From Caecitellus pseudoparvulus (lineage: Eukaryota; Protista; Bigyra: Bicosoecida), in contig CBFFRQ010000212.1 in assembly GCA_965644315.1 (NCBI GenBank), positions 1-64,000 on the forward strand: a DNA stretch of 64,000 bases, given 5' to 3'. The translations under genes and the position numbers were made by a program. This document shows positions 9,218 through 47,091 of the stretch, one piece after another. The notes under the pieces are model-generated. The model was not told where the DNA came from. It made no database searches and saw nothing but the letters and a program-made list of their open reading frames with translations. Each line of letters opens with the position of its first letter. Positions within the stretch are counted from its first letter, which is position 1.

Positions 9218-9781
9218 TTAGAACTTATTTGATAATTTAAAAGTAGCTTTTATAACGTTGTATAATTCATCATAAGAAGAAAAGATATTTAATAAATCTT
9301 GACCGCAGCTGCTTATTAATTCTAATCTGTTAGATTCAACTTTTTTTAATTCATCAGCGGGGATATTTTGCGTGATTTTTCTAAATAAATCATTAGAAGG
9401 GGTTAAGCATACGATTGCTTTATCTTCAACACCAAGAAATTTAGCCTCATCAATAGAAGAAACAACCAATAATAATGAGTGGTCTTTTAAATCTTTTCTA
9501 AGTTTATTAACATATTCTTTAGCTTTTACTAAATAATTTACGTTAGAATTTACCGAGTTTTCACGTGGCACACTTTCGCCAACATCAACTAAAAGAACTT
9601 TATTATTGCCTTTTAATTTTTCGCACATTCTACTTTTTCCAGTTTTAGAGCTCATCACAACAGCCCCAAATTTTACTGCTTTAAATTTTTTAGCTCTTCC
9701 ATTTTTCCAACAATTATAAGAGCTTTTAACGCCTAACGATACTAAGGCGCCGCCTACCATTAATCCTGTTTCTAAATTCAT
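9218..9781 (-). CDS. Small protein with hydrophobic N-terminus and degenerate P-loop; homolog of 43619-44182
   Basis: 187 aa, GAVVMSSKTGKS and LLVDVG; colinear with the element 2 copy. Confidence 0.8.
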   Translation of the reverse strand: MNLETGLMVGGALVSLGVKSSYNCWKNGRAKKFKAVKFGAVVMSSKTGKSRMCEKLKGNNKVLLVDVGESVPRENSVNSNVNYLVKAKEYVNKLRKDLKDHSLLLVVSSIDEAKFLGVEDKAIVCLTPSNDLFRKITQNIPADELKKVESNRLELISSCGQDLLNIFSSYDELYNVIKATFKLSNKF

Positions 9782-9844
9782 AATATATATTATACTAGAG
9801 ATTTTTTATTTTTTTATTAATCGTCTTTAATAATTTATTTATCT

Positions 9845-10667
9845 TTATGATTTATATATAATATGAATTTTTTTATTTTTATTAATTTGATAAATTCCCC
9901 CGTATTCTTCATAATAGAATTTTTTAAAAATGTAGTTTAAAACGTCAATTTTATTCATAACAAATAAACAATTTTTATTATTATTCATGAATTTATATAT
10001 ATCTAAATATATAGTTGTCCCGTCAGTATATTTTATTTTCTTATTTTTTCCTTTGAAAGTGTATGCGTATTCAGTATTACAAGAATTAAAATAAGGAGGG
10101 TCAAAATAATATAATATTTTCTTATTTTTATATTTTTTTAGTTTGTTTTAAAAAATCGTTAAGTTCTAAATTAGAAAATTCACATTTTGAAAACATTTTA
10201 ATATAATCGTCTTTCTTTTTTAGGAAATTATTTATTTTTGTTTCAAATTTATCAATTCCACAAATACCAAGACATTTAGAAGATATTAATTTTAATAAAT
10301 AATTTTCATATTTTATTTTATTTTCTTTTTGTTTTAAATATTGAGTTAATTTTTTATCGTTCGTTTCTTTATTTAATTCTAATTCATTATATAATTTATT
10401 TTTATAATCAATAATAAAATTTAATGTTCCGTCAAAGTCGTTTTTTAAATCATTATAAAATTTAATTATTTGTGGGTCAATATCATTAATTAAAAATTTA
10501 ATATTATTATTATCTTTATGTTTTAAAAAATAATATCTACTAAATCCAAAAATACCAGCACAAGGTTCAGCTATATAATCAAAATCAGAATTTTCAACAA
10601 AATCATTTAAATATTTCTTTGTTTCTAGATATTTATTTCCATTATAATTAAAAATAAATCTATCCAT
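9845..10667 (-). CDS. Dam/D12-class N6-adenine DNA methyltransferase (frameshift in a homopolymer run at about 10133-10139)
   Basis: FNYNGNK, EPCAGIFG, INDID in the first frame; YYFDPPYFNS in the shifted frame, running to TAA at 9845. Confidence 0.82.
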
Positions 10668-10676
10668 ATTAAATAC

Positions 10677-10973
10677 CTAGACAAAAAAATATTTAAAATT
10701 TTTAAAAAACATTTCATTATATGTTTTAACGGCATCTTTTAAATTATCATCATCACCCCATAATAAAAAGAATGATAAATAACCCGGTCTTTTAGGGTCA
10801 TACGTTAATAAATCTTTTTCGTGTCTTTTTCTGTAATTTTTACGTTTTCTTTTATCTTTATGGTCTATATATGTTTCTCCTCCATTATATCCAAAATGTG
10901 CTTTAGTTCCATCATTAAATATAGCGACGAAACGTTTATTTTTTCTATTACTTTTTTTAATATCAATAATCAT
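10677..10973 (-). CDS. Tlr6F-like (DUF5754-like) protein
   Basis: KSNRKNKRF...HFG...YIDHKD..R..Y..RH...PGYLS..LLW pattern. Confidence 0.8.
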   Translation of the reverse strand: MIIDIKKSNRKNKRFVAIFNDGTKAHFGYNGGETYIDHKDKRKRKNYRKRHEKDLLTYDPKRPGYLSFFLLWGDDDNLKDAVKTYNEMFFKNFKYFFV

Positions 10974-10991
10974 TATAAAAACATATATAAT

Positions 10992-12890
10992 TTAATTTGA
11001 TATTCTATCCATTTTATATGTTATTTCAACGTCAATATTTTCATTTATATTGCTTTTCACTGCCACATTCCACGTAGGAAAATTACCCGCTGAAGATACC
11101 GTCATAACCTTAGATAATGTAATTTGTCCGTAGTTTTTAGCTGCTTCAGCTTCCATAAATATTCGCCCGATTGTGTTATCCTCACCTGAAGCAGAATTAG
11201 GAACGGTCATTCTACCAAATACAACGGCTGTTGTTTGTCCTGGTCCGTCTATTACTAAATTAAAAGTAGCACTTAAAATATATGTTCCTGTTTGGTATGA
11301 TTCAACGGGAATTGTAGCATCCATAGTAAATGTTTTCCAAGTGTTAGCGGTGAAAACATCATTAAGAGCTATTTTATAACTTTGAAAATTTGCTGTTCTT
11401 GCTAATAATTGCCCGTAATTTATGGCGTGATATTGTGTTGTTCCATCCTTTAACCATTCAATATTCCTATTACCCATATCTAATTTAACGCTTGTTTTAA
11501 TTTCTGTATTAGAAACTGAGAAACGCTGAACCTCACCGCCTCCATTATTACAAAAGAAGGCGTGTTCTGAACTTGAACCACCGGACATATTAACATATCT
11601 TGTTTCGTTATTTAATTGTTCTATCCAATATGAAACCAAAGAACCATCAGGACGAATTAACGTTAATTTATCAGCTTGAATCTCTCCGACATCTTCAATA
11701 TTATTACCGTTTAAATTAATATTATTGTTAAAACTGCTACCACCCGCCACACTATCAACATAGGCTTTATTTGCTCCATCTGTCCCTATTGTAGGAGTTG
11801 CCACATTTTCGATTTTATTATTATTCATATCTAATAAAGCTTCTATGCTTGTAATTCCTGAAAATGTTTTATTTCCTGCTACACTTTGATTTCCTGTAAG
11901 TTTGACGCAGGTATTAATTAAATCATCAACATATTTTTTATTGGTTAAGCAATCATCATTATTAGCGGTGTCAGTTTGGAAAATACGGCAACTAGGACTT
12001 AAATAAATAGCCCCTGTGTTATAAAAATATGTTAGTTGTTTATTTGGGTCGTTTCCAATTCTAAATTGAGCGGTTGAGGCGTTTTTAGCTGATAAAGTTA
12101 AAATTTTATTATTATCGTCTTGATTTAATAAAACTTCAGTCCCTCCAAATCCTAAATTTCCGTTAATATTTAATTCATTATCGCTATTATATGTTAAATC
12201 CATTGTTGATGAACCATTATCAAAAATTAAAGAAGGGTTAGAGGCTTTATCAAGGGTGACCGTTTCATATGTTGGATTAGTAGGGGGTATTGGTGCTGGA
12301 GTGCCTTGTGTCGAGTTACCGAGTATCACAAATAAACGATTTGAATTAGTGGGCGGGTCTTCTAATAATACCTCTTGAGCGGTTGAAGTTTTACAATTAG
12401 CATGTTTAAATTTAAATGTTGTATTAAAATTTGCGTTATTTTTAGCCGATAAATAAATATATTTTGTATTCGCTGGAAATTGTAGGGCGTCCCCTATGAC
12501 TTGAATATCGATTAAATGATCGGTGTTTAAAATATCCGCTTCATTACTAGATGAAATATAATTTTCGTCTTTATCGTAATAATCCAACCTGACATTTAAA
12601 TTTAATTGTTCGTTTTCTGTTGTTTCAATTTCGCAATAATAATTTAAATTTAATCGTGAATATGTCCCAATATCGTCAGGAGCTTTTAAAACATCTTTTA
12701 AAGGTTGAGAAAAAAACATAGCTTTATAAGCAGTGTTAGCGTTGATAGTATCTTGAGTTCCAAAAGCAGTCCCCGCAGTTGAAAAAAAATTAATAGCTTC
12801 TTTTAATCTTGCCACATTTGATGTTGTTTGTGGTTCATTATATACTATTAATTTATTCATTTCGTATTGATTCTTAACATTATTAAACAT
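10992..12890 (-). CDS. Fiber/spike-like virion protein
   Basis: Fiber-type repeats LTGNQSVAGNKTF, LDMNNNKIENVATP, DGANKAYVD; next to capsid genes. Confidence 0.7.
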   Translation of the reverse strand: MFNNVKNQYEMNKLIVYNEPQTTSNVARLKEAINFFSTAGTAFGTQDTINANTAYKAMFFSQPLKDVLKAPDDIGTYSRLNLNYYCEIETTENEQLNLNVRLDYYDKDENYISSSNEADILNTDHLIDIQVIGDALQFPANTKYIYLSAKNNANFNTTFKFKHANCKTSTAQEVLLEDPPTNSNRLFVILGNSTQGTPAPIPPTNPTYETVTLDKASNPSLIFDNGSSTMDLTYNSDNELNINGNLGFGGTEVLLNQDDNNKILTLSAKNASTAQFRIGNDPNKQLTYFYNTGAIYLSPSCRIFQTDTANNDDCLTNKKYVDDLINTCVKLTGNQSVAGNKTFSGITSIEALLDMNNNKIENVATPTIGTDGANKAYVDSVAGGSSFNNNINLNGNNIEDVGEIQADKLTLIRPDGSLVSYWIEQLNNETRYVNMSGGSSSEHAFFCNNGGGEVQRFSVSNTEIKTSVKLDMGNRNIEWLKDGTTQYHAINYGQLLARTANFQSYKIALNDVFTANTWKTFTMDATIPVESYQTGTYILSATFNLVIDGPGQTTAVVFGRMTVPNSASGEDNTIGRIFMEAEAAKNYGQITLSKVMTVSSAGNFPTWNVAVKSNINENIDVEITYKMDRISN

Positions 12891-12956
12891 ATTATTAATA
12901 TAACATATATTATTTTTTTTATTATTTAATATTTCTTAAACAATAAATTAAATTAT

Positions 12957-14780
12957 TTAATTTAATAAATTTTGAAGGTTATTTTTTTTACGTCTTCCAC
13001 CTGTAGTTTTTCCGCCTCCTGTATTTACACCAAGCCCTAATTTATCTAATACGTCGGCTGCTACTTTTCCTTCCATACCTACATCACGTAAAGCACTTTT
13101 ACCAAGTTTAGATGCTGCTTTATATGCGTCATGATTTACAATGGATTTTAAACCAGAATTTAATTTTTTCCAGAAATTAGAACCGCCAATATAACGAGTA
13201 AGGCTCATAGTGTCGCCGCTTACAGGTGCTTCAATAACGTCAGCTTCAGAAAGGGGAGCAGTACTGACAGCACTAGTGCCATTTTCACTCACGAAAAAGC
13301 CACTATTAACAGCCATTGTATATAAAATAGGGTTATTAGCAGTTAAACCACTATTATTCACACAATTGACATCAAACTGCATTGTATAATTACCACCAAC
13401 ACCACTAGAAGTGCCAGCAGGTAAAGCAAAATCAACACCAGGACGGAGGATTAAGAAAGAACCAGATAAACCAATTTTACCGTTGCCATTTTGACCAGTC
13501 CAGGCTTGCCCTAAATATTCGTTATAATCAACATCTAATCCGTTATTTTGTGAAATGTGGAATAATTGCTGGGTAGTCATTGAAGATAAAATACCGGATA
13601 CATTATTAAAATTTAATCTAATATCTTTTACAGGTAAATAATAATCGCCAACATCATTATTGCCAGTTAATGAAGGTTTAGCATAAATGACAAGCAGATC
13701 GGGGATTTGAGAAAGTGTGATAGTTTGAGAACGTAAATTAACACTTGCTCCAGGTGCTACAGTTGTTGAGCTTGTTGAAATGTAGCGGGGATACTCCATA
13801 TAAGGCACAACGCTTCTTTTAGGTAAAGGTAAAGACAGAGAAGGAGAACGGAAAACACAATTTACGACGGCATTTTGAAAGGGGTTTTGACCGTTTAAGC
13901 TTACGGGAGAATAAGAGAAATTCCAATCGTCTAATTCAATATGATTTGTGGTATATCTTAGCATTCTTGAAACATCACCCACATTAAACATTAATTTAAT
14001 GTTATTCAGCCCATACAAACCTACATTATCCTCTTGACTTTCATTGAAAATAAAGGGTGATAAAATTAAATTCTCGGTGACTGTTAATTTAAAATATACG
14101 GTTTGACTAAAAGAGGTGGCGTTTCCTGCCTGAATTTGCCATTGATAATCTGCGGCTGTTGCTGGTTCTCCGTTTTCTTTAACCCATTCAAAACCTTGAA
14201 AAGCACCATTTGGCACGTTATCATTATTTAAAGCTTCTTGATATCCTTTTAATACACTGTTGGAAAGTGTGCGGCTGTCATTATATGAGACGTATTTATC
14301 AAGCATAGAAGGCGTGGTTCTGCTTTTATGATTTCTTTTAGAAGCTGACATTTTTAATATTTCATAAATTACATCTTGAGAATTCACGGAAACTGTGGAA
14401 TTATTAATGGTGGCTGTGGTTGTGCTCATACAAGATTGAAAGGGATAAGCAGCAGGGGCGATTGAATCACCGGGGGTGAAAACTGGCTGTCCGTTTAAAT
14501 CGGGGTTTTGAACTGTTCCTGGGAATGCTTCTGGGTTACCGCTTTTAGATGTAATTGTAGCGGTAATTTTACCCATAATCTCAACACTTACGGGCATATT
14601 TCTATCCATAAACATATTTTGGCTTGGTGCTGTAATATTAAAAGATACTGAAGAACTGGAAGCGGTGGCAGCTTGAAAAGGTGTATTGCTGATGCTTACT
14701 GCTCCTTCATTTACGGCATATCTTGGTTGTGGTTGAACGATTCTAGCGTCCATAACTTTAATTTTTTCAATACTAGACAT
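12957..14780 (-). CDS. Virophage major capsid protein (double jelly-roll)
   Basis: About 607 aa from MSSIEK (TCTA upstream); N-terminus resembles Sputnik/YSLV MCP (DARI...YAV..G...SSSSVSFNITAPS...DR), plus ENLILSPF and QIPDLLVIY; GG-rich basic C-tail. Confidence 0.9.
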   Translation of the reverse strand: MSSIEKIKVMDARIVQPQPRYAVNEGAVSISNTPFQAATASSSSVSFNITAPSQNMFMDRNMPVSVEIMGKITATITSKSGNPEAFPGTVQNPDLNGQPVFTPGDSIAPAAYPFQSCMSTTTATINNSTVSVNSQDVIYEILKMSASKRNHKSRTTPSMLDKYVSYNDSRTLSNSVLKGYQEALNNDNVPNGAFQGFEWVKENGEPATAADYQWQIQAGNATSFSQTVYFKLTVTENLILSPFIFNESQEDNVGLYGLNNIKLMFNVGDVSRMLRYTTNHIELDDWNFSYSPVSLNGQNPFQNAVVNCVFRSPSLSLPLPKRSVVPYMEYPRYISTSSTTVAPGASVNLRSQTITLSQIPDLLVIYAKPSLTGNNDVGDYYLPVKDIRLNFNNVSGILSSMTTQQLFHISQNNGLDVDYNEYLGQAWTGQNGNGKIGLSGSFLILRPGVDFALPAGTSSGVGGNYTMQFDVNCVNNSGLTANNPILYTMAVNSGFFVSENGTSAVSTAPLSEADVIEAPVSGDTMSLTRYIGGSNFWKKLNSGLKSIVNHDAYKAASKLGKSALRDVGMEGKVAADVLDKLGLGVNTGGGKTTGGRRKKNNLQNLLN

Positions 14781-14871
14781 ATAATATAATTTAGAAAATA
14801 TTTTTAAAAATAAACCCTTATATTTTTTTAAAAAATCACGCATTTTGTAAAAAAAACTAAACTAGATATTT

Positions 14872-16008
14872 TTAATATTTAGGTTGAAATAAAAATTTCA
14901 TAGATACATTAGATAAATTAGATAATTTAAGAGGCACAAGTTCCCCCGTTAATCTATATTTCCAGTAAATATTAACGTTAATATTTCTTATAGGTTGTTT
15001 AGAATTTGTAAGAGATACGAAACGATATTCAGCACCCGGGATATATGATATATAATCCTTATAGTCGTAGGCATCGTCTAGAGTTAAACTAATATCAGTA
15101 ATGATAGGTTCAAAATTAGAAATTGAAGAAACGGCATTAGCATTGTTAGAATTACCAAATTTCACGGGCTGGCTTACACCTTCACTTATAATAGGTAATA
15201 ATGAAGAAGTAAAAACAATAGAAGATATAGGGCTCCAATATGTGCCAAGGCTTACGGCTTCTTGTTCTATTTTAATATAATCTACGCTGTTTAATGTGAT
15301 AGAGTTTAAACCCTGATAATTACGGGGGATAATTCTATATTGTTTAGTTTCGTCTAAATCGTTGTATTCATGCGGATAATGTGATAATAAATTATATAAA
15401 TTAGAATTAAAAAAGAACGAAAAACCGCCGTCATTATCTGCGGGATAATAAATATCAAATTTTTTATTTGCGTTATTATATACTATAAAAGGGCTTATTA
15501 AATCTGTAAATGCTGGATAATCAACTTTTATTAATGCGTTTAATTGAGCTATTGAATATGTTATGGCTTCATTTACTAATTTTATAAAATGGTCGTATGT
15601 GTGGCAGTAATAATATTCTTGAGATGCGTTTTGTCCTTCTGTTTCAAAATTTGAAGGTGCTGATAAGCTTGAATCGTTGCTTTCCCATATTACGGGTTGC
15701 GTGTATTCGTATTCATTGCCGCCTATATGATTATATTTAACTGTTATTTTATATACGGTTTTATTTGGGTTTGTTTGTCCTTCTTCAATTACTGGTATAA
15801 ATAAAGGTAAATCATTAATACCGTTCATAGTAAAACGAATAATAGACATTTTATATTTTGAGGCATCATTAATTAAGGGTACGTCTCGTGTTTCGGAAAA
15901 ACTGGCTATTGGGTCGTTAATCTTACCTTGGCTCGTGCTTCTTCCGTTGATAATATCAATATTATAATAAATATTTTTATCTTCTTGATACATTGTAGAA
16001 TTTAACAT
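14872..16008 (-). CDS. Virophage penton / minor capsid protein
   Basis: NIYYNIDI...FSETRD.P..Y.MSIIRF, WSPISSIVFTSSLLPI, YIPGAEYR; adjacent to MCP. Confidence 0.88.
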   Translation of the reverse strand: MLNSTMYQEDKNIYYNIDIINGRSTSQGKINDPIASFSETRDVPLINDASKYKMSIIRFTMNGINDLPLFIPVIEEGQTNPNKTVYKITVKYNHIGGNEYEYTQPVIWESNDSSLSAPSNFETEGQNASQEYYYCHTYDHFIKLVNEAITYSIAQLNALIKVDYPAFTDLISPFIVYNNANKKFDIYYPADNDGGFSFFFNSNLYNLLSHYPHEYNDLDETKQYRIIPRNYQGLNSITLNSVDYIKIEQEAVSLGTYWSPISSIVFTSSLLPIISEGVSQPVKFGNSNNANAVSSISNFEPIITDISLTLDDAYDYKDYISYIPGAEYRFVSLTNSKQPIRNINVNIYWKYRLTGELVPLKLSNLSNVSMKFLFQPKY

Positions 16009-16041
16009 TATTAATATATTAGATAAAATATTTTAATAAAG

Positions 16042-16626
16042 TTATTTTTTTAATAAATCATGAGTAAATTTGGTGACTACGTCGTCAAAGTCTTTTAAAT
16101 TCTTATCTTTTAATGATTTCATTAATTTTTTATAATCTTCTAAAGATAATTTATATAAAAGTAATCTTGCCGCTGTATGTCTACCACATGTTCCTATGCC
16201 TTCTCCTTTTTTTTGGAATTGGTATCTATTATATTCTAAACCATACCCCGCCTGGTCTATCATTCTTAATAATCGGGGTTCGTCTTGTCCTGTTTGTCTT
16301 TCTACTTCTTCGTCTGCGTTTAAATTTTCAGTTGCTGTGTCTGGTGGGTGTCCGTAAGGGTCGAAATGCTCTATAATATTTCCTTTTTTAATTAATCCTA
16401 CCCAATGCCCCACATTAGGGTCAGACGTTAGATATAATAAAATACAACGCCCCTTTTTATCGAAAATTTCGTCAATATGTCTATAATTATATAATTTATC
16501 ATAACTTATAATATTTGTATCATCATTAAATAAATATTCTAAATCACTATTTGATAAATAATAACGTTTAAGCTGTTCTCTTAATTCTTCGTTATGTTCT
16601 GGGTCAGATTTTTTAGATTTTTTCAT
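16042..16626 (-). CDS. Maturation cysteine protease (adenain/Ulp1-like)
   Basis: GHWV, HFDPYG, QFQ...TCGRH (His/Asp/Gln/Cys catalytic motifs). Confidence 0.9.
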   Translation of the reverse strand: MKKSKKSDPEHNEELREQLKRYYLSNSDLEYLFNDDTNIISYDKLYNYRHIDEIFDKKGRCILLYLTSDPNVGHWVGLIKKGNIIEHFDPYGHPPDTATENLNADEEVERQTGQDEPRLLRMIDQAGYGLEYNRYQFQKKGEGIGTCGRHTAARLLLYKLSLEDYKKLMKSLKDKNLKDFDDVVTKFTHDLLKK

Positions 16627-16665
16627 TATAATATATTATATTATAAAAATATCATATATTATTTT

Positions 16666-17454
16666 TTAGTCTTCGTCTTGATGTAAAAGATAAGCATAAT
16701 TTGAAGATAATATATAGTTGGGATAATTTGTAAAAACCGCACACCATCTCCCTAATTTACGTAGTTTTTTTATTTCGTCTTTATCACATCCTCCATAATT
16801 TCTTAACAAATACCCTAATTGATGAGGTGAAGAAGATTGAGGAAAAATAACAATATGAGTTGATTCATTTAAAATTAATCGTGTTTTTTTGTAGTTTGTT
16901 AGGTTATGAGCAATATAAATCATAGATATTCCCTGATGACGCCCCATAATACATATATCATCAATGATTTTTAATATTTTGTCTAAAACGTTTTTTTCTA
17001 AAGTTTCAAAATCATCAAAAATATATAGTCCCTCTGTGTCTTCGTTGTTAATATCAAAGTCTTCTATAAAATCTTCAATATCTACACGGTGGATAAAATC
17101 TAATTCGTCTAATGTTTCGTCTTGTGTTAATTTAGATATTAGATAAATAGGCAGGTCGGGGTTTAATCTATGATAATTATTAGATATAATTTTGGCTGTG
17201 TAGCTTTTACCTGAACCCGCAGCACCTGGCACATAAAAAATATCACGTTTTCCCTTCTTAGTAGCAGGGAGAATATTAAAAATTAAATCGTCAGGTAGTT
17301 TTATGCTTTTATGTCCGGTGTTTTTATCGGTTAAACATAAGAATTTATTAAAATCTTTATGGTTTTCATCACCTTTAACAATGGCAACGGGTGTGTAATC
17401 CTTCTTTAATTTATGTTTTATATTTTTATAATCAAGTAATTCAAAACTAGGCAT
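16666..17454 (-). CDS. A32/FtsK-HerA genome packaging ATPase
   Basis: GAAGSGKS Walker A, YIFDD Walker B, GRHQGIS. Confidence 0.92.
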   Translation of the reverse strand: MPSFELLDYKNIKHKLKKDYTPVAIVKGDENHKDFNKFLCLTDKNTGHKSIKLPDDLIFNILPATKKGKRDIFYVPGAAGSGKSYTAKIISNNYHRLNPDLPIYLISKLTQDETLDELDFIHRVDIEDFIEDFDINNEDTEGLYIFDDFETLEKNVLDKILKIIDDICIMGRHQGISMIYIAHNLTNYKKTRLILNESTHIVIFPQSSSPHQLGYLLRNYGGCDKDEIKKLRKLGRWCAVFTNYPNYILSSNYAYLLHQDED

Positions 17455-38077: not shown

Positions 38078-39781
38078 ATGGTCGTATTCAGTGTAATGAC
38101 AATTAAGAATTTACTTAATGAAAACAAAATAGAAGATGTCAAAGAGTATGTGCAAAAATACTTTTTTAAGACAACAGATAGTTATTTTTTTAAGAATGTA
38201 CAAACTGGGAAATATGATAACTTCAAGCAAAAAGACTTGAGACAATATATTCCAAAAGATTTAACCAATCAAGATTATATTGAAGAGAACAATTTAAAAT
38301 CAAATAGACAAACCAAATTCAATTTGTTTGATTACATGGTAAGTTCTGAATTTTGTGATTGTTCCAATAATGTACAATATGGTATATTTCCAGATACAGA
38401 TGATGATATTGTATCCATTACAAGAAATATTAAGGGTAAAGCCTTAACTCAAAAATATTTAAATATGGTTAAACCTTTACCTTTTGATTTAAGTGAATGT
38501 AAAGACATAAAAGAGAAAGATTTTTTAGAAGAAATTGAAGTTATTGATAATCATATTAAGGAAGTATTATGTGGGGGAAATATTGCTATGTTTGAATATG
38601 TACGTTTATTTTTTGCTTTTTCAATTGCTGGTGTAAAGGTGCGAAAAGCAATCTTTATGTTGTCAGAAGAAAGAACCGGAAAAGGCATATATTTAAACTT
38701 CTTAGATCGTGTGCTTGGCGAAAGAATGCTTAAAACATCCTCAACCGAAACTATAACAAAGTACACCAAACCATTAGAAGGGGTTGTATTAGTAAATATT
38801 GATGAGCTACCAGAATTAAGAGGAAACTTACTTATACAAGATAAACTGAAAGGATTAATAACTGAAGATAAATTTGATTGCCGTGATATGTACAGTGTAG
38901 GATACACTCAAACAAATACATTTAACATAATTATAACGACAAATATTGAAGGATCAATTAATTTGAGTCAATCAAACAAAGAGCGGTATATATGCCCTGA
39001 TGTATCAGACCATCGCAAAGGTGATTTTAAGTATTTCCAAAGTGTTATTAAGGCTATGAATTGTAAGGGGGTAATACCTGCATATTTTAATCATATGAGA
39101 AAGCTTTATGAAGAAAACAAAGATTTTAATTTTGATATTATGCCAAATTCAAGAACAAGGGATGAAAAAATTATATCTGCTCTTCCTCCTTTATACAAGT
39201 ATATCAAAGATGAATTTATATTTAATAATGCTGATATGGATATAGAATGCAAGCAATTATTGGATGAATACAATACGAACGCAAAATTTAAAATGACCCT
39301 TCATAGATTACACAAAGATTTAAAAAAGATAGGTATTATTAAAACTACTGTATCTGTAAATGGTTCAACAAAGAGAAAATTTATTGTACCTGTTGAAACA
39401 TTACGCAAAATATTTATAAGTAAAAGATGGTATGACCCAGAAATAGAAGATGATGAAGCACCAGAAGAAGAGGTATCAGTTGATGACATGGATTATATTA
39501 AAGTTTTGTATGCAAAACATCCTGAAAAGTTTAAAGAGTTTATGTCAATTTTAGAAGGGAAGAAACCAAAACCAATAACAGTAGAATCAAAAAAATCAAA
39601 ACCAAAAAAAATTAAACTATCTGAAAACAAGAAAATATTCAAGAAAGAAAAGGAAGCCAAAGCAAAAGCAAAGAAAGAGAAAACAGAAAAGGAAATTAAA
39701 GAATACAAAAAGAAAGCAACAAAAGCAAGTAAGAACGGAAAATTAATAACTAAAGAAAATGATAATTTAGGAATTTTTTAA
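38078..39781 (+). CDS. Superfamily 3 (D5-like) helicase
   Basis: SEERTGKG (atypical Walker A), VNIDEL, IITTN, ERYI; Lys-rich tail. Confidence 0.85.
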   Translation: MVVFSVMTIKNLLNENKIEDVKEYVQKYFFKTTDSYFFKNVQTGKYDNFKQKDLRQYIPKDLTNQDYIEENNLKSNRQTKFNLFDYMVSSEFCDCSNNVQYGIFPDTDDDIVSITRNIKGKALTQKYLNMVKPLPFDLSECKDIKEKDFLEEIEVIDNHIKEVLCGGNIAMFEYVRLFFAFSIAGVKVRKAIFMLSEERTGKGIYLNFLDRVLGERMLKTSSTETITKYTKPLEGVVLVNIDELPELRGNLLIQDKLKGLITEDKFDCRDMYSVGYTQTNTFNIIITTNIEGSINLSQSNKERYICPDVSDHRKGDFKYFQSVIKAMNCKGVIPAYFNHMRKLYEENKDFNFDIMPNSRTRDEKIISALPPLYKYIKDEFIFNNADMDIECKQLLDEYNTNAKFKMTLHRLHKDLKKIGIIKTTVSVNGSTKRKFIVPVETLRKIFISKRWYDPEIEDDEAPEEEVSVDDMDYIKVLYAKHPEKFKEFMSILEGKKPKPITVESKKSKPKKIKLSENKKIFKKEKEAKAKAKKEKTEKEIKEYKKKATKASKNGKLITKENDNLGIF

Positions 39782-39825
39782 TTAAATGACCTAAGGATAA
39801 ATTACGTATTTACGATATATTAGAT

Positions 39826-40170
39826 ATGGTAAATATGAATAAGTATATTGTAAGAAGAAATGAAGAGAAGGTAGGAGGACATACTCAACATGATATGTAT
39901 ATTGAAGCAAAGGATGGAGAAGAAATAAATTTTGATAGCATTAAAGAACTATATGGTCATATTGTTCCCAAGATAGATAAAAAGTATGATGTTGATGAAC
40001 TTGTTGTACTTGGACTTCGTAAAGATGGTATTATGAATATTAAAGGGTATGGTTCAACAATTGACGAAACATTGGATAATTTAGATGAGTACTTAAATGG
40101 TAAAGTAAAAGTACAATCAAAATTTCAATCTGTAAGATCATTAACTATTTCATGGTTAGTGGAAGAATAA
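39826..40170 (+). CDS. Small protein, candidate stand-alone terminal protein
   Basis: 114 aa directly upstream of pPolB with its own promoter motif; occupies the position of the element 1 pPolB N-terminal domain. Confidence 0.55.
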   Translation: MVNMNKYIVRRNEEKVGGHTQHDMYIEAKDGEEINFDSIKELYGHIVPKIDKKYDVDELVVLGLRKDGIMNIKGYGSTIDETLDNLDEYLNGKVKVQSKFQSVRSLTISWLVEE

Positions 40171-40213
40171 AATAATAAAATGACTTAAAGATAAGATTAG
40201 TATTTTATAATAT

Positions 40214-41452
40214 ATGATAGTATATTATAAAGACTCAGTATCAAGAACTTATTTTTCATATGATGGAGGAAAGGTAAAGAAGAGCTACAAAAAACCAAAT
40301 GGGTATGAGATGTTAAAGAGCTTTGGAATAGATGCAGATGAAAACGGACTCATAGAGTATTATGAAAAGATTCAAGAATATTCGAATGAATTAGAAAAAT
40401 ACTTATCCAATATACCAAGTACACGAAATCCTAAACGAATGTTATTTAAAGGACTGGATCTAAGATTCTTTAAAGAGGATGGATGTAATACCTCACTAAT
40501 GAATACTTTACTGATCAATACACGCAAAGATAAGAAGAATTTGAAATCCTATGAACATATGACATATGAAGAATATAAATTTATGGATCAATCATATGAT
40601 TCAGGTTTAATAGCAGGTACACCATACAAAGGTAAAGTATATGCTTATGATCAAAAGAAATTTTATTCAATGACTTATGGATGTAGAAAAAGAAACTTTA
40701 AGTTTCCAGTAAAAAGAGGAAGATTTGAAACATTAACAGAGACACCCGAAAAGTTTGAATATGGATATTATCATATTAAAGTTGTTTCATCAGATCCAAG
40801 AGCAAAATTTCTTATTGGCTTTTCTAAGAAGAATTATTATGATCATTTTACATTGAATAAACTGAAATTCTTTCGTGATTGGGTCGGTCTAAGTCTTAAA
40901 TGGGAAATTATACAGGATGGTAAACCAAATGCTTTAATATATGATAATGATACATTAGTAGATTCACATATTATTTTTGGATGGTATCAAGATATACTCA
41001 TGAAAGCAAATGATAAGCTACCAAAGAACCCTCTTATTAAGTTTATGTTAAATAATATGTTTGGATATCAAAAGATTAAACATCGGCCAATTTATAGAAA
41101 ACTATCAAGTATTCAAAGCAAAACCGAAGAGGAGCAAAAGAATATTTTACCAATTCTTAGTAAGTCTTATGTAAACAAGAAAGGTGAACGTGTGTATTAT
41201 ACAGTAAAAAGAGAGCGTATATTCTTATATACAACTGCAAGAATGGGATATTTTCTACCTGCCACTTGTAGAGCTAAGATGTCAAATTTAATAGCTCCAA
41301 TTCTTGATGATGTAGTAAGGATATATATTGATGGTTTCATATGTAAAAAGAATCATGATGAAGTAATAACAAAGTTTATTTGTCAGGATCATAAGTACCA
41401 CAATAAGACAATAGATATTAAAAGCTCACAAACAATTTACTTTTTGGATTGA
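40214..41452 (+). CDS. Short divergent protein-primed PolB
   Basis: SGLI, YAYDQKKFYS, KFMLNNMFG, RIYIDGF; FETLTETP.KF..G.Y shared with element 1 pPolB. Confidence 0.8.
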   Translation: MIVYYKDSVSRTYFSYDGGKVKKSYKKPNGYEMLKSFGIDADENGLIEYYEKIQEYSNELEKYLSNIPSTRNPKRMLFKGLDLRFFKEDGCNTSLMNTLLINTRKDKKNLKSYEHMTYEEYKFMDQSYDSGLIAGTPYKGKVYAYDQKKFYSMTYGCRKRNFKFPVKRGRFETLTETPEKFEYGYYHIKVVSSDPRAKFLIGFSKKNYYDHFTLNKLKFFRDWVGLSLKWEIIQDGKPNALIYDNDTLVDSHIIFGWYQDILMKANDKLPKNPLIKFMLNNMFGYQKIKHRPIYRKLSSIQSKTEEEQKNILPILSKSYVNKKGERVYYTVKRERIFLYTTARMGYFLPATCRAKMSNLIAPILDDVVRIYIDGFICKKNHDEVITKFICQDHKYHNKTIDIKSSQTIYFLD

Positions 41453-42447
41453 TTCTTCTTTTTTTCTTCATATTCCTTTACTATATCTGGAACTTGTTTT
41501 TTAATTCTTATTTTGTTTTCCCAAGTTGCATTTTTCTTAGGAAAACCTTTCCACCATACTTTATATTGTCCTCTCCTATCATCTATTATTTCTCTGACTT
41601 CAAATGTTTCTTCACCACTGGCTAGTTTAAGTTCTGATTCTGCAAATGATACATTTGGTAAATAATTTAATTGATATCGTACTGGAACATTTCCTTTATA
41701 TGCCAGTATTTGTTTAATTTTTCTAGCTTTCTTACTAAATCTTCTATCTCCTGTTCTAAATCCTCCTTGAACGGGATTTCCTAATGAATCTTCGGCCTGA
41801 GATGGTGTCAGCTTATAATATACAAGATCACCTATTTTAAATTTTGGAGAGATCATCTTAATTTTTGCAAATTTAAATTTGTTTGGTTCAACTTTTCTTA
41901 TTTTGTTTAATTTAGTTCTTACCTGAGATAAAATATCTGTCCATTCTCTATAAGGTTTATTAGTTTCTTCTTCTTTTTTGTTCATGTATCCATTAAATAG
42001 TCTTCCAAGTGTTTTATTTAATCTTTCCACATTTGCCATTTGCTGGTGTCTTCCTTTCATTGCTGTTTTTTTTAAAATTGATTCATCAAATAGAAATTTG
42101 GCAAAATCACCTTTAAACTCTCCTCCTCCATCTGTTCTTATACTTGCTTCTGGTAAATTAATATGTTTTCGTTTAATCATCTTTTTAAATGCACCTAAAA
42201 CAGTATTTGGTCTTTTAGTTTTTAGTGGTTCAATATCAAATTCATTAGTCCATAAATCAACAACAACTAATAAATATTTAAATCCTTCTTTGGTCTTTGG
42301 TAGCTCTAATAAATCAGCTTGAAAATTATAATCTTCTTCAGGATAGATTACCCCTTTAACTTTTGTAAACTGAGTTTCTTTAGGTTGTGGTTTAGTAAAA
42401 GTCTCATCAATTCCCAATTCAGATATTAACTCTTTTATTTTGCTCAT
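41437..42447 (-). CDS. rve integrase with chromodomain
   Basis: QADLLEL, LVVVDL, RTDGGGEFKG, VERLNKTL; FEVREI...KVWWKGF...TWE. Confidence 0.92.
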   Translation of the reverse strand: MSKIKELISELGIDETFTKPQPKETQFTKVKGVIYPEEDYNFQADLLELPKTKEGFKYLLVVVDLWTNEFDIEPLKTKRPNTVLGAFKKMIKRKHINLPEASIRTDGGGEFKGDFAKFLFDESILKKTAMKGRHQQMANVERLNKTLGRLFNGYMNKKEEETNKPYREWTDILSQVRTKLNKIRKVEPNKFKFAKIKMISPKFKIGDLVYYKLTPSQAEDSLGNPVQGGFRTGDRRFSKKARKIKQILAYKGNVPVRYQLNYLPNVSFAESELKLASGEETFEVREIIDDRRGQYKVWWKGFPKKNATWENKIRIKKQVPDIVKEYEEKKKNQSKK

Positions 42448-43618: not shown

Positions 43619-44182
43619 TCAGAATTTATTACGCAATTTGAACGTGGTGCGAATGACAGAATAAAGAGTATCATAACTATCAAAAATATTTAGTACGTCC
43701 TCACTACAAGCACTAATTAGTTCCATTCTTTTACGTTCCATTTCTGCTACATTTGCAGTATTACGACCTTCACATATTGATTTAAAAAGCGAGTTTGAAG
43801 GTGTCAGAACAGCAATGTTTGATTCATCAACACCAAGATACTTTGCTTCACCAATAGAGGAACAAATCAAAATTAGTTTGTAATCTTTCAAATCCTTTTT
43901 TACTTTATCTACATATTCCTTAGCTTTCATTAAATAATTAATATCTGCGTTTGTATCACCATCAACAGCGACAGATTGGCCAACATCAATTAAATAGACA
44001 CCTGAATCTGCTTTAAGTTTGTTTGCCAGTGTAGATTTTCCAGTCATGCAACTCATAACAATAGCACCAAATCTAATTTTAGACCATTTCTTCTTTTTTG
44101 ATTTTCCAAAACATGAATAAGCGGTTTTAGCACCAATTGATACCAAACCAGCACCTAAAATTAATGCATTTTCCATTTCCAT
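43619..44182 (-). CDS. P-loop-like protein with hydrophobic N-terminus; homolog of 9218-9781
   Basis: 187 aa, GAIVMSCMTGKS, gap-free alignment to the element 1 copy. Confidence 0.8.
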   Translation of the reverse strand: MEMENALILGAGLVSIGAKTAYSCFGKSKKKKWSKIRFGAIVMSCMTGKSTLANKLKADSGVYLIDVGQSVAVDGDTNADINYLMKAKEYVDKVKKDLKDYKLILICSSIGEAKYLGVDESNIAVLTPSNSLFKSICEGRNTANVAEMERKRMELISACSEDVLNIFDSYDTLYSVIRTTFKLRNKF

Positions 44183-44228
44183 AAATATATTATAGTAAGA
44201 GAAAAAAACTATATTTCCATAAATATAA

Positions 44229-44513
44229 TCATTTTTTATTAAAGAAGAATTGCTTATTATATGCTTTCATTGCATCTTTTAAGTTTGTCTCATCACCCCA
44301 TAAAATATAATATGATAAGTATCCTGCTCTTTTTGGGTCTTTAGTTTCTAAATCTCTTTCATGTCTGGCTCTATAATTCTTTCTTTTCTCTTTGTCCTTG
44401 TGGTCAATAAATGTGCTACCTTCCTTTTGTCCAAATGAAGTTTTTGAACCATCTTTAAATATAGCTGTAAATCTTTTATCCTTTCTTGCTGATGGTATTA
44501 TATCTAGAATCAT
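44229..44513 (-). CDS. Tlr6F-like (DUF5754-like) protein
   Basis: Close homolog of 10677-10973. Confidence 0.8.
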   Translation of the reverse strand: MILDIIPSARKDKRFTAIFKDGSKTSFGQKEGSTFIDHKDKEKRKNYRARHERDLETKDPKRAGYLSYYILWGDETNLKDAMKAYNKQFFFNKK

Positions 44514-44550
44514 ATATACTTATACTACAAATTTTATTTTATATTTAAAT

Positions 44551-47091
44551 TTATACTACTACTCTAGATATTATAGCATTTCCATAAAATTCAAATGGTG
44601 TTCCACTACCACTTCTTGAACCTATATCCATTGTAAGTTGCTTAATTCCTGTTGAGGTATATTCAACAATCCATTTTAGATTAATACTACCAGTAGCCGT
44701 AGATGAATTGCTCATACCAGTCCTTGATAAATCAATTCCTCTTGCTCCACCAGGTGCTGATAGATTACCAACAGACCCGGGAGCAGTTAGAATTAGCGTA
44801 AAATGTCTATCAGTTAATGTCGGTTCGTTTTGTTTTATATTAATAGTATAATCAATCATATAATGTCCTGTCTTTGTTAAATTAAAAGCACCAACATTAT
44901 ATGAAGAATATATAGGTAAATTAGTACAACTCATACTTAAACTCGTAACCGTAGCAGAGTAAGATCGAGCAATATTATCAACATAATTTTTTGTTGCTGC
45001 GTCTGAGCCTACTACTGGTTCTGCTAATTCTTCTATTTTTTGGTTTCCCATTCTTAATTCAAAATTGCTTTCTATAAATGAATTTGCGATTCTAAAAGCC
45101 AAATCATTTGTAAAACCATTATAAGTATAAAAACGGTGTCCAGCAGCTCCTGAATTAACTAAATTATCATATCTAATATAATTTGACTCCATATATATGC
45201 TTGAAACGTTTTTATTGTTATCACTAGGGCGTATTAATATTAGTTTTTTTGCTTCTGCTTCATTAATATTTTGAATGTTATTATCATTCATATTTATATC
45301 AGTATTGAAAGAACCAGCACTAGCAACAGCATTATCAACATAATTTTTTGTTGCGGCGTCTGTATTTGCTGTAGGTTCTGCCAGTTGTTCTATTTTATTA
45401 TACCCCATATTTAATTTATAATTAGTATCAATATGATTTCTTGTGATTTGAAGAGCCATAACATCGTTTGTTCCGTCTTTCACATAGAATCTGTGACCTC
45501 CAAATGAGCTATTTATTAAACTATCATAACTTATATAATTTCCAACCATTCTAATACTTGCCACGCTTTTATTACCATCATCAGGTTTGATTAATGTTAA
45601 TCTTTTTGCTTGTGCTTCATCAATATCTAAAATGTCATTATCATTTAAATCTAATTGTGTGTATGAAGTTGTGAGAGATTCAGAAAATCCAAAAATGTCT
45701 TGGTCTCCTGAAGTTTCGGTAAGTGTTGTTATTTTGAATGTTTTTGCAGGTGCTGATGAGTATAATTCTAAAGCTGTCCCAGACCCTGCATTATTAGTTC
45801 TAAATTCCCAAGGTCTTCCAGTTTCAAAACGTAATAAGCTTTGCATTCCTGCTGATGTATTCTCAAGTATCATTTTATTTGTGAAAGTTTTTTCACCCCC
45901 TACATTTTGATTTGTTGTTAAATTTACATAATCAGTTGGTATATTATCATCTACATATTTTTTTGTTGCTGCTTCATCGTCATCTACAGGCTCAGCAAGA
46001 CCATAAAGAATATTATTTGACATATTAAAAGGTAGTAATGATTGAACGCTATTATAATTTATATTAAATGTATTTATTACAGTTCCAGAATTATTATTAA
46101 AAAATGAATGTCTATTATTTCCACTACCATTAACATAACGCATTATATTTGTTGTTGGTTCTGACTCAAGATAGTTTGCTTCACTGCCGTCAGTCCTAAT
46201 TAATATCATTTTATTAGTTTGTATATCTTGTTCAGTAATCAGGGTATTTGTGAAAGTTTTTTCACCCCCTACAGTTTGATTTGTTGTTAAATTTACATAA
46301 TCAGTTGGTGCATTATCATCTACATATTGTTTTGTTGCTGCATCTCCAGGAAGTGAAGGAGAACCAACAGATACCAATCTATTATTATTCATTGAAAGCC
46401 CTTTTAAACAGTCAATTTGATTCGTTTGTGCGTTAATTCGTAGCATTAATGTTTCTGTTCCTCCCTGCATAGTATAAAATGTGTGGCTTCCTGATGATGA
46501 TTCATTTAAAAATACCAAATCGCCGTTTTCATCTGAATATATTGCTCTGTCTGTGTCTTGTGTGCTTGGATTAATGAACTTTGATTTGTGTAAATGTGTA
46601 TCAGTATTAAATGTTTTAACCCCTGAAATATCTTGATTACCTGATAATTTAACCGTATTATTATCAAATTGTTGCTTTGTAATTGGTTCGTTTTGGCTGT
46701 TTGCATCTCGCACTCTTACCGTGCCTAAATCATAAGGTTGTTCTAATGTTGTTAATGGCTCTGCTGAAGCATTATTATAAACAATACCTACATCTTGACC
46801 ACTTTTGAATATTAAACCTTTGTATCTTGTATTTCCTCCTATAACTTCTTTTGAAGTAAAACCAGTATCAGCATTTACAGCAGGTGAAGCATTATTAAAT
46901 TCAACAATTGCATCTTTTACTTTGAATGTTTCAACTTCATTAATGATTTCTTCACCATCTACTTCTAAATTATTTTGAATAGTTACATTTTTAAATGTTA
47001 TGTTCTCTGCATTCTCCAATCCTTCTATTACTGATTCAATAACACCTGAACCATTTAAATTTAAAGAATATGATAATCTTGTATCGTCCAT
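44551..47091 (-). CDS. Fiber/spike-like virion protein with tandem modules
   Basis: Repeated DAATKxYVDN, LTTNQxVGGEKTF and LAEP modules; shares modules with 10992-12890. Confidence 0.72.
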   Translation of the reverse strand: MDDTRLSYSLNLNGSGVIESVIEGLENAENITFKNVTIQNNLEVDGEEIINEVETFKVKDAIVEFNNASPAVNADTGFTSKEVIGGNTRYKGLIFKSGQDVGIVYNNASAEPLTTLEQPYDLGTVRVRDANSQNEPITKQQFDNNTVKLSGNQDISGVKTFNTDTHLHKSKFINPSTQDTDRAIYSDENGDLVFLNESSSGSHTFYTMQGGTETLMLRINAQTNQIDCLKGLSMNNNRLVSVGSPSLPGDAATKQYVDDNAPTDYVNLTTNQTVGGEKTFTNTLITEQDIQTNKMILIRTDGSEANYLESEPTTNIMRYVNGSGNNRHSFFNNNSGTVINTFNINYNSVQSLLPFNMSNNILYGLAEPVDDDEAATKKYVDDNIPTDYVNLTTNQNVGGEKTFTNKMILENTSAGMQSLLRFETGRPWEFRTNNAGSGTALELYSSAPAKTFKITTLTETSGDQDIFGFSESLTTSYTQLDLNDNDILDIDEAQAKRLTLIKPDDGNKSVASIRMVGNYISYDSLINSSFGGHRFYVKDGTNDVMALQITRNHIDTNYKLNMGYNKIEQLAEPTANTDAATKNYVDNAVASAGSFNTDINMNDNNIQNINEAEAKKLILIRPSDNNKNVSSIYMESNYIRYDNLVNSGAAGHRFYTYNGFTNDLAFRIANSFIESNFELRMGNQKIEELAEPVVGSDAATKNYVDNIARSYSATVTSLSMSCTNLPIYSSYNVGAFNLTKTGHYMIDYTINIKQNEPTLTDRHFTLILTAPGSVGNLSAPGGARGIDLSRTGMSNSSTATGSINLKWIVEYTSTGIKQLTMDIGSRSGSGTPFEFYGNAIISRVVV

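What the first reader, a model, noticed from the sequence alone, without database searches (positions are those of the whole stretch)
9218..47091. Virophage and PLV share a syntenic fiber - Tlr6F - P-loop cassette despite unrelated capsids
Seen: both elements carry fiber, then Tlr6F-like, then a 187-aa P-loop protein downstream of their capsid genes on the same strand. Element 1 has an MTase inserted within the cassette. The Tlr6F pair and the 187-aa pair align without gaps at roughly half or more identity by eye. The fibers share modules (GSSFNNNINLNGNNI...KLTLIRPDG vs GSFNTDINMNDNNI...KLILIRPSD). The MCPs, pentons and ATPases are barely alignable. Inference: a host-entry module was exchanged between two virus classes sharing one host.
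Basis: partly seen in the sequence, partly recalled or inferred. Interest (0 to 1): 0.85.

Follow-up and report, generated by a model that had tools for sequence, protein, structure and literature searches.

The report
Virophage–PLV hybrid joined inside fiber gene
Two unrelated small DNA viruses inserted side by side in a likely protist genome share a block of three neighbouring genes, likely through an old recombination that joined inside the fiber gene; such gene swapping is already known, but this case shows the likely junction and gives one shared orphan protein a predicted kinase-type fold.

Summary
A Sputnik-type virophage (E1, 5568-27716) and a PLV (E2, 36952-54648), each with terminal inverted repeats and a 5-bp target duplication, carry fiber > Tlr6F > 187-aa gene. 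Identities are 66% (94 aa) and 51% (187 aa), both ungapped; MCP and penton score no better than shuffles.

Exchange is supported. The 187-aa proteins form a clade (99/98), and a virophage-only clade is rejected (AU p=0.0016). E1's fiber is a chimera: residues 41-240 match fibers of its virophage capsid kin, and 321-500 match a module found only in E2-type fibers. The three-gene order was not found in 161 other Tlr6F loci or 80 virophage loci.

'Host-entry module' is only partly supported. The C-terminal fiber heads are not detectably related, Tlr6F's margin over outsiders is 1-4 points, integrase and PolB-like genes are shared too, and synonymous sites are near saturation, so the event is old.

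The 187-aa protein is predicted to have an NMP-kinase-type P-loop fold; its best viral match is a 211-aa mavirus orphan (likely MV12), then chrysovirus/endornavirus proteins. Virophage-PLV exchange within one host is published (Cafeteria EMALE02; Halocafeteria preprint). Verdict: new variant of a known kind.

The parts
5568..27716 (.). Element 1 (E1): endogenous Sputnik-type virophage, 22.1 kb, 577-nt TIRs, 5-bp target duplication AAGGA
   Evidence: GC 26.7%
7528..8592 (+). E1 rve integrase with chromodomain; closest match is the E2 integrase (127 bits against 43 for L164/L165)
8624..9085 (+). E1 PD-(D/E)xK nuclease, convergent with the 187-aa gene (same arrangement in virophage locus L174)
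   Evidence: PF24579 E 3e-6
9218..9781 (-). E1 187-aa P-loop protein (P187), predicted NMP-kinase-type fold, N-terminal hydrophobic stretch plus Cys
9845..10667 (-). E1 adenine-methyltransferase-like gene inserted between Tlr6F and P187; frameshifted in an A-run, DPPY motif in the second frame
   Evidence: no Pfam/PHROG hit for the first frame, so the label rests on the motif
10677..10973 (-). E1 Tlr6F (DUF5754)
   Evidence: PF19058 E 3e-15; 66% to E2, 28-41% to Tlr6F of other virophages
10992..12890 (-). E1 fiber, chimeric: aa 41-240 (about 12171-12770) virophage-type N-terminus; aa ~353-490 (about 11421-11834) PLV-type shaft module; aa ~495-632 own head
12957..17454 (-). E1 virophage morphogenesis block: MCP (12957-14843), penton (14872-16008), cysteine-protease-like gene (16042-16626), packaging ATPase (16666-17454)
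   Evidence: PF21915 4e-59, PF22031 4e-42, PF21507 1e-21; 43-64% to virophage loci L163-L169
22136..27053 (-). E1 replication genes: PolB-like (22136-24088) and SF3 helicase (25290-27053)
   Evidence: phrog_11768 DNA polymerase 4e-9; PF19263
36952..54648 (.). Element 2 (E2): endogenous Polinton-like virus, 17.7 kb, ~418-nt TIRs, target duplication CAAAG; the empty site is seen in run X5
38078..42447 (.). E2 SF3 helicase (38078-39781 +), PolB-like (40214-41452 +), rve integrase-chromo (41437-42447 -)
43619..44182 (-). E2 187-aa P-loop protein (P187)
44229..44513 (-). E2 Tlr6F (DUF5754)
   Evidence: PF19058 E 2.5e-15
44551..47091 (-). E2 fiber, 846 aa: three full copies of the ~88-aa module (aa 271-360, 479-566, 598-685) and one partial; C-terminal head with a predicted TNF/C1q-like jelly-roll fold
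47140..50164 (-). E2 PLV morphogenesis block: probable penton (47140-47982, by position), double-jelly-roll MCP (48064-49392), A32-like ATPase (49439-50164)
   Evidence: Pox_A32 26 bits against cutoff 22.8; ESM Atlas 0.97 to Capsid_N/DJR clusters

Best explanation
E1 is a virophage that likely took the far end of its fiber gene, together with the downstream Tlr6F and 187-aa genes, from a PLV lineage living in the same host, through an old recombination whose junction likely lies inside the fiber gene. Shown: the two elements, the gene order, the identities, and the fiber's split ancestry (aa 41-240 match virophage kin; aa 321-500 match E2-type fibers). Inferred: both virus types co-reside and co-replicate in one host, and repeated fiber motifs offer crossover sites. 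Keeping the native N-terminus would let the hybrid fiber still dock on the virophage capsid, while the downstream genes came along. Direction is likely PLV to virophage, because the module has 3-4 copies in E2-type fibers, one in E1 and none in the capsid-kin fibers examined. The heads diverged or were swapped again afterwards, and an MTase was inserted in E1. The 187-aa protein is predicted to be a nucleotide-binding, NMP-kinase-type phosphotransferase, likely membrane- or virion-associated through its hydrophobic N-terminus. It is probably a passenger accessory gene, not a shown entry factor.
For: Fiber window scan: aa 41-240 score up to 53 bits with L163/L166/L169 and 3 bits or less with E2-type fibers; aa 361-480 score 32-85 bits with E2/P0195/P0196 and 12 or less with virophage kin. 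The module HMM hits only E1, E2, P0195 and P0196 among 242 loci and 120 fiber hits. The full-length fibers of L164/L165 (MCP 45% to E1) lack the module and are followed by other genes. P187: E1-type plus E2-type clade has SH-aLRT 99 among 86 rows and 99/98 among 40 chosen rows; a clade of E1-type with the virophage L174 homolog is rejected at p-AU 0.0016. Tlr6F of E1 is 66% to E2 and 28-41% to the 11 Tlr6F copies in 80 virophage loci. Relatives of the E2 fiber are themselves mosaics: P0195 has an E1-like module with an E2 head, and P0196 has the E2 N-terminus with another head. Fold: Foldseek PDB E 6e-5 to adenylate-kinase-like AD-004, VIA Z 11.0 (rmsd 3.5, 149 aligned); GK[ST] in 68 of 86, D66 in 83 of 86, R/K152 in 73 of 86 family members.
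Against: Tlr6F's margin is small (E1-E2 131.6 bits against 125.3 for L083; tree unresolved). Integrase and PolB-like genes are also each other's best matches, so the exchanged block may be much larger than the cassette. L174, a virophage, has a fiber-like gene > P187-family gene >< PD-(D/E)xK order like E1, so the gene position may be old in virophages and only the allele replaced. Only two capsid-kin fibers (L164, L165, near-identical) are full length, so absence of the module rests on thin sampling. The hosts of the database homologs are unknown, so 'same host' is not tested against close hosts. The P187 model has mean pLDDT 60.
Confidence: 0.6

Rival explanations
1. Capsid-block replacement, as proposed for Cafeteria EMALE02. 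A virophage morphogenesis block (ATPase, protease, penton, MCP, fiber N-terminus) was moved into a PLV-type chassis. Cassette, integrase and polymerase would then all descend from one ancestral element, and the capsid block is what moved.
For: Integrases (127 bits against 43) and PolB-like genes (61 bits, no other hit in 242 loci) are each other's best matches. The integrase lies just beyond P187 in both elements. L164/L165, the capsid kin, show no PolB-like or SF3 match. Precedent: PMC8547959 section 7.
Against: The SF3 helicases are not each other's closest match (35 bits against 60-66 for outside loci). Identities are graded (24-66%). Integrase orientation relative to the cassette differs. 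E1 genes carry a TCTA upstream motif (11 of 18 against a background of 0.18) and E2 genes do not (2 of 18 against 0.16).
Confidence: 0.2
2. Piecemeal sharing. Fiber module, Tlr6F and P187 were picked up separately from the host's common viral gene pool, and the matching order is convergent because accessory genes collect behind the fiber.
For: Tlr6F is very widespread (about 2200 stretches estimated in metagenomes) and conserved at 53-58% median. Fibers are mosaics. L174 has an unrelated P187-family gene behind a fiber-like gene.
Against: P187-family genes were found in 0 of 161 other Tlr6F loci (136 with at least 700 nt downstream) and 1 of 80 virophage loci. Three adjacent genes in the same order and strand, each closest to the other element, is unlikely by separate events.
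Confidence: 0.15
3. One reading: a functional host-entry module, selected as a unit so that both viruses bind and enter the same cell by the same route.
For: The fiber module is private to this lineage. P187 has a conserved hydrophobic N-terminus (71 of 81 members) with Cys (69 of 81). A few Tlr6F peptides were seen in Gezel-14T particles, below threshold (10.1101/2022.07.28.501842, passages).
Against: The heads, the usual receptor-binding part, score 3 bits or less against each other. Synonymous sites are near saturation. No entry role is known for Tlr6F or P187. An MTase interrupts the block in E1.
Confidence: 0.1

Closest known systems
EMALE01/EMALE02 of Cafeteria burkhardae (Hackl et al. 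2021, PMC8547959; section 7 and passages read)
   Same: An endogenous virophage and an element with PLV-type capsid genes in one host share non-capsid genes. Tlr6F is in EMALE types 1+2, an MV12-like gene is in EMALE02, TIRs and rve integrase are present, and a TCTA promoter motif marks one type.
   Different: EMALE02 shares 6-7 kb of near-collinear DNA with EMALE01. Here sharing is protein-level and old, the virophage capsid is Sputnik-type rather than mavirus-type, and the junction falls inside the fiber gene.
Halocafeteria seosinensis endogenous virophages and PLVs (bioRxiv 10.64898/2026.07.28.741278; parts 1-4 of 5 read, supplements not seen)
   Same: Virophages and protease-less PLVs co-occur in one genome and exchange genes (RVE integrase, pPolB, accessory genes) while capsid genes stay class-specific. 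A CroV-like late promoter is present in one virophage subclade.
   Different: The main text has no mention of fiber, Tlr6F, MV12 or a P-loop gene, although its Table S4, not seen, could list them. Host GC there is 47%, against 57% flanking DNA here.
Mavirus 211-aa orphan A0A1L4BK99 (MV12 by my recall of its length; no call gave the gene name)
   Same: Best BFVD structural match of P187 (E 1e-9, TM 0.68, 20% identity).
   Different: Sequence relationship to MV12 was not tested. MV12 is listed as 'unknown function' in PMC8547959.
Phytoreovirus P7 / Phytoreo_S7 domain of chrysoviruses and endornaviruses (PMC3483285, passages read)
   Same: Chrysovirus, endornavirus and rice dwarf virus P7 proteins fill most of the named BFVD ranks 2-29 (E 7e-6 to 7e-4). 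That domain is reported as a horizontally mobile viral domain.
   Different: P187 is a stand-alone protein of DNA viruses with no PF07236 hit. The match may only reflect the common NMP-kinase fold.
Modular phage-like fibers of PLVs and virophages (PMC12220804, passages read)
   Same: BppL_N motif, tail-fiber repeats (PHROG hits), and a jelly-roll head like BclA, C1q or PRD1 P5.
   Different: The ~88-aa repeat module here matches no Pfam family and was found only in this small lineage.

Membership tests
Virophage (Virophaviricetes), E1 | Virophage-type MCP | tested here: met
   PF21915 200 bits, PF22031 144 bits
Virophage (Virophaviricetes), E1 | Virophage penton | tested here: met
   PF21507 77 bits; homologs in 77 of 80 virophage loci
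Virophage (Virophaviricetes), E1 | Cysteine protease and packaging ATPase | tested here: met
   16042-16626 is 49-55% identical to the gene before the penton in its best virophage loci, with hits in 67 of 80; the ATPase is up to 64% identical, with hits in 26 of 80. There is no Pfam protease hit; the name rests on synteny and recall of the H/D/C motifs.
Virophage (Virophaviricetes), E1 | Dependence on a giant virus | not testable with these tools
   Indirect only: TCTA motif upstream of 11 of 18 genes, described as the CroV late promoter in PMC8547959
Polinton-like virus, E2 | Double-jelly-roll MCP unrelated to the virophage MCP | tested here: met
   ESM Atlas 0.97 to clusters with Capsid_N (15-18% of members) or DJR-like domain (10%); no Pfam or PDB sequence hit; z -1.1 against the E1 MCP
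Polinton-like virus, E2 | A32-like packaging ATPase | tested here: met
   PF04665 26 bits against cutoff 22.8
Polinton-like virus, E2 | Minor capsid protein (penton) | tested here: inconclusive
   280-aa ORF next to the MCP; no profile hit
Polinton-like virus, E2 | 15-25 kb, TIRs, integrase, target duplication | tested here: met
   17.7 kb, TIRs, rve-chromo, 5-bp duplication; empty site in X5
Polinton-like virus, E2 | Assignment to a named PLV clade | not tested
   No capsid relative was retrieved from viral contigs
Tlr6F (PF19058/DUF5754) | Profile score above cutoff | tested here: met
   56 bits each against 27.4; PF19058 = Tlr6f per PMC12220804
NMP-kinase-type P-loop proteins, P187 | Fold: parallel sheet with P-loop and lid | tested here: met
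   Model mean pLDDT 60; Foldseek E 6e-5; VIA Z 11.0, rmsd 3.5, 149 aligned; the list is almost all small-molecule/NMP-type kinases
NMP-kinase-type P-loop proteins, P187 | Walker A GK[ST], Mg-binding Asp, lid Arg | tested here: met
   68, 83 and 73 of 86 full-length members; the first Gly of Walker A is replaced. Roles are assigned by analogy.
NMP-kinase-type P-loop proteins, P187 | Phosphotransfer activity and substrate | not testable with these tools
   Needs an assay
Mavirus MV12 family | Homology to MV12 | tested here: inconclusive
   Structural match to A0A1L4BK99 only; MV12 sequence not available; the name is recalled
Phytoreo_S7 (PF07236) | Pfam profile match | tested here: not met
   No hit for either window protein at E 0.05; not among the 25 of 33 families shown for 85 family members
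Trimeric viral fiber | Repeat shaft plus C-terminal jelly-roll head | tested here: met
   PHROG tail-fiber hits; E2 head Z 8-9.5 to cyanophage fiber, TNF and C1q domains, middling scores. The E1 head was not modelled.
Trimeric viral fiber | Homotrimer formation | not tested
   The complex-prediction queue was full

The most novel reading that the evidence does not exclude
Fiber genes are recombination hotspots that let virophages and PLVs of one host trade everything downstream of the capsid-anchoring domain. One of the traded genes, P187/MV12, is an active membrane-anchored kinase of the same mobile family as the phytoreovirus P7 domain, which would link dsDNA virophages with dsRNA viruses and give mavirus MV12 its first function.
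Probability: 0.25. Interest if true: 0.75.

Novelty: new variant of a known kind. Interest (0 to 1): 0.45.

Why it matters
Gene exchange between virophages and PLVs in one host is in print, mostly for integrase and replication genes. This locus adds a likely physical junction inside a structural gene, which suggests how a virus can take foreign fiber parts and their neighbours without losing capsid attachment. It also turns an orphan family of about 90 clusters, likely including mavirus MV12, into a testable nucleotide-binding protein with named residues (K49, D66, R152). Mavirus is culturable, so the function can be assayed directly.

Tried and rejected
No whole genome is held for this window, so other copies in the host could not be surveyed. 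Scans for loci around P187 found nothing in viral contigs or metagenomes, and the wide alignment was too variable to search with. Scans with the E2 MCP, the single E1 MCP and the integrase pair found nothing. The phage collection had no match for P187 or the E1 MCP. PDB sequence searches gave nothing useful. The ESM Atlas gave only unnamed clusters at 0.90-0.91 for P187. The Tlr6F tree (quick method, 90 rows x 102 columns) did not resolve the E1-E2 relation. No RNA holder was listed, so expression is untested. The fiber-head trimer prediction never ran because the queue was full. The shaft module modelled poorly (pLDDT under 50), so its fold is unknown. Host ORFs between the elements gave no Pfam family, so the host lineage is not identified; 'protist' is an inference. 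Matching contig lengths (1142 for P0001/P0006/P0194; 6021 for P0185/P0196) hint that the genes co-occur in relatives but were not counted as evidence. A recent transfer was rejected (pS 0.62-0.63, near what ~20% GC3 would give at saturation). Shared receptor heads were not supported. No earlier scan findings were returned. Literature searches for an MV12 or P-loop-kinase assignment found none; the library lacks most subscription papers.

Full report
ANATOMY. The window holds two complete AT-rich elements in 57%-GC DNA, and the start of a third. E1 (5568-27716) has perfect 577-nt TIRs and a 5-bp target duplication. Its MCP and penton match Sputnik-type profiles (PF21915 E 4e-59, PF22031 4e-42, PF21507 1e-21). 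Its ATPase > protease > penton > MCP block is 43-64% identical to virophage loci L163-L169. E2 (36952-54648) has ~418-nt TIRs, a 5-bp duplication, an A32-like ATPase, an MCP resembling NCLDV/PLV double-jelly-roll capsids, a lipase-like gene and no match to the E1 protease. A contig of run X5 joins 36946 to 54649, which is the empty site, so this insertion is polymorphic between isolates. A TCTA motif lies in the 40 nt upstream of 11 of 18 E1 ORFs (background 0.18) and 2 of 18 E2 ORFs (background 0.16). PMC8547959 ties that motif to the CroV late promoter (passage), so the two elements are likely regulated differently.

OBSERVATION. Both elements carry fiber > Tlr6F > 187-aa gene (P187) on one strand behind the capsid genes. 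Tlr6F is 66% over 94 aa and P187 50.8% over 187 aa, both ungapped. Against 200 shuffles, z is 53 and 68; fiber 22; MCP -1.1, penton 0.2, ATPase 3.1. E1 has a DPPY-type methyltransferase gene between Tlr6F and P187, frameshifted in an A-run. The E2 region shows several one-base differences from X3 contigs, so an assembly error is possible; E1 itself was not checked against reads. The elements also share integrase (38%), a PolB-like gene (30%) and an SF3 helicase (24.5%).

ARE THE CASSETTE GENES SPECIFICALLY RELATED? P187: a word-seeded search gave 5 hits, all 187 aa, falling into E1-type and E2-type. A full HMM search gave 90 representatives, with median identity 25% to the window proteins and 43-45% for the nearest full-length outsiders. 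The profile came from the six close sequences, which biases which relatives were collected. In a tree of 86 full-length rows (8 of 94 dropped for length), E1-type plus E2-type form a clade at SH-aLRT 99. In a careful tree of 40 rows (39 chosen by me from the 94, plus the L174 homolog) support is 99/98, and forcing E1-type together with the only other virophage homolog, L174, is rejected (p-AU 0.0016).

Tlr6F: among 90 hits seeded with the E2 protein, E1's best matches are P0006 (68.5%) and E2 (66%), then 62.9%. E2's next outsiders reach 65%, and the quick tree is unresolved. The 11 Tlr6F copies in 80 virophage loci are only 28-41% identical to E1's, but metagenomic L083 scores nearly as well as E2 (125 against 132 bits). 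Tlr6F is therefore compatible with exchange but weak evidence. Synonymous differences are 0.62-0.63 in both genes, near saturation for this composition, so the event is old.

THE FIBER IS A CHIMERA. The shared part is a module of about 88 aa plus a flanking repeat. Best single-domain scores are 77-79 bits for E1-E2 and 135 for E1-P0195. Summed scores of repeat-rich fibers can be higher, and E1 ranks only 20th by total score in the E2 search, but outside the E2-like group the best domains in the module searches score 28 bits or less. A module HMM, built from the E1 and E2 copies, hits otherwise only P0195 and P0196 among 242 loci and 120 fiber hits. N-termini (8 bits) and heads (3 bits) are unrelated by sequence. 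Scanning the E1 fiber in 80-aa windows, aa 41-240 match the gene that follows MCP in its capsid kin L163, L164, L166 and L169 (up to 53 bits), and aa 321-500 match E2-type fibers (up to 85 bits); aa 241-320 match neither. L164 and L165 have complete fibers without the module and without Tlr6F or P187 behind them; they are near-identical, so this is one independent case. P0195 and P0196 combine these parts in other ways, so module shuffling recurs in this lineage. The E2 head models as a beta-sandwich matching cyanophage fiber, TNF and C1q/BclA domains at middling Z 8-9.5. The E1 head was not modelled.

IS THE NEIGHBOURHOOD COMMON? No. Of 162 loci fetched with Tlr6F, 161 hold Tlr6F and none holds a P187-family gene at E 0.01 or a fiber match. 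Of these, 136 have at least 700 nt downstream, and a control HMM built from 72 distant members finds both window genes at E below 1e-41. These loci are the best 80 of 194 and 80 of 571 candidates, plus 2. Of 80 virophage MCP loci (best 80 of 466; 30 have at least 4 kb downstream), 1 has a P187-family gene. That one, L174, has it behind a fiber-like gene and convergent with a PD-(D/E)xK gene, as in E1. This goes against my reading in part: the slot may be old in virophages, with only the occupant replaced.

HOW FAR DOES SHARING REACH? The integrases are each other's best match (127 bits against 43), and the PolB-like genes match only each other. The helicases match outside loci better (60-66 bits against 35). 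The exchanged block may therefore extend to the integrase, which lies just beyond P187 in both elements, and a capsid-block replacement cannot be excluded.

WHAT P187 IS. The model (mean pLDDT 60, 6 sequences) matches NMP-type and small-molecule kinases (Foldseek E 6e-5; VIA Z 11.0, rmsd 3.5 over 149 residues). In BFVD the best match is a 211-aa uncharacterized mavirus protein (E 1e-9, TM 0.68), followed mostly by chrysovirus and endornavirus proteins and rice dwarf virus P7. That the mavirus protein is MV12 is my recall. GK[ST], D66 and R/K152 are kept in 68, 83 and 73 of 86 members. The N-terminus has a hydrophobic 13-mer in 71 of 81 members and a Cys in 69 of 81. I read it as a likely active, membrane- or virion-associated nucleotide-binding phosphotransferase; substrate and location are untested.

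MECHANISM. Shown: gene order, identities, incongruence with capsid genes, and the fiber's split ancestry. Inferred: co-residence in one host allowed recombination at repeated fiber motifs; the virophage kept its capsid-docking N-terminus and took the distal fiber with the genes behind it, likely from a PLV; heads then diverged or were swapped again. Confidence is 0.6. Rivals are capsid-block replacement (0.2), piecemeal sharing (0.15) and a selected entry module (0.1).

COMPARISON WITH WHAT IS KNOWN. PMC8547959 (section 7 read whole, passages, supplement search) describes EMALE02, a virophage 5' half with PLV capsid genes, an MV12-like gene and Tlr6F. bioRxiv 10.64898/2026.07.28.741278 (parts 1-4 of 5; supplements not seen) reports broad gene exchange between endogenous virophages and PLVs of Halocafeteria and does not mention fibers, Tlr6F or MV12 in the main text. 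PMC12220804 and 10.1101/2022.07.28.501842 (passages) describe modular PLV fibers and widespread Tlr6F. PMC3671162 (passages, section 5 part 1) and 10.64898/2026.06.19.733378 (part 1, passages) describe module exchange in general. PMC3483285 (passages) covers the mobile S7 domain. PMC11172284 and PMC10120064 (passages) added nothing. Searches found no kinase-fold assignment for MV12.

VERDICT. The feature is real, the phenomenon is known, and there are two new details: a likely junction inside the fiber gene and a predicted fold for the shared orphan. New variant of a known kind; interest 0.45.

Noticed in passing
window ~60300-64000: A third AT-rich element begins here and runs off the window. 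It has a 598-aa rve integrase-chromo (61894-63690) closer to the integrase of virophage loci L164/L165 (130 bits) than to E1 or E2, and is preceded by a perfect 40-nt-arm palindrome (60278-60357) and tandem repeats. The Halocafeteria preprint describes terminal palindromes in some elements.
   Followed up: partly
window 42507-42815 and L164:14291-14617: A 102-aa E2 (PLV) orphan has its only match in virophage loci L164/L165 (25%, 27 bits), where it lies downstream of the fiber: another gene shared across the two classes.
   Followed up: no
window 6179-6724 and 24343-24933: Two paralogous E1 genes with short W/Y-containing repeats (80% DNA identity over 222 nt, inverted); the second has a 78-nt tandem repeat.
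   Followed up: no
window 22136-24088 and 40214-41452: Highly diverged family-B polymerase-like genes (650 and 412 aa) with no Pfam hit and no relative in 242 loci; the E2 copy is short and may be reduced or inactive.
   Followed up: partly
window 321-3892: PIF/Harbinger-like transposase (DDE_Tnp_4) with a convergent 473-aa ORF in the host flank.
   Followed up: no
window 29616-30519 and 59373-60277: 99%-identical host repeat pieces, with a weak tyrosine-recombinase hit (E 0.01) at 30028-30528; possibly a YR-retrotransposon remnant.
   Followed up: no
run X9 laid on window 36700-54900: E2-like contigs continue into different flanking sequence at the element ends, suggesting insertions at other sites in another organism.
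   Followed up: no
window 20098-22032: A 644-aa E1 gene whose C-terminal part has homologs in 25 of 80 virophage loci and no Pfam family.
   Followed up: no
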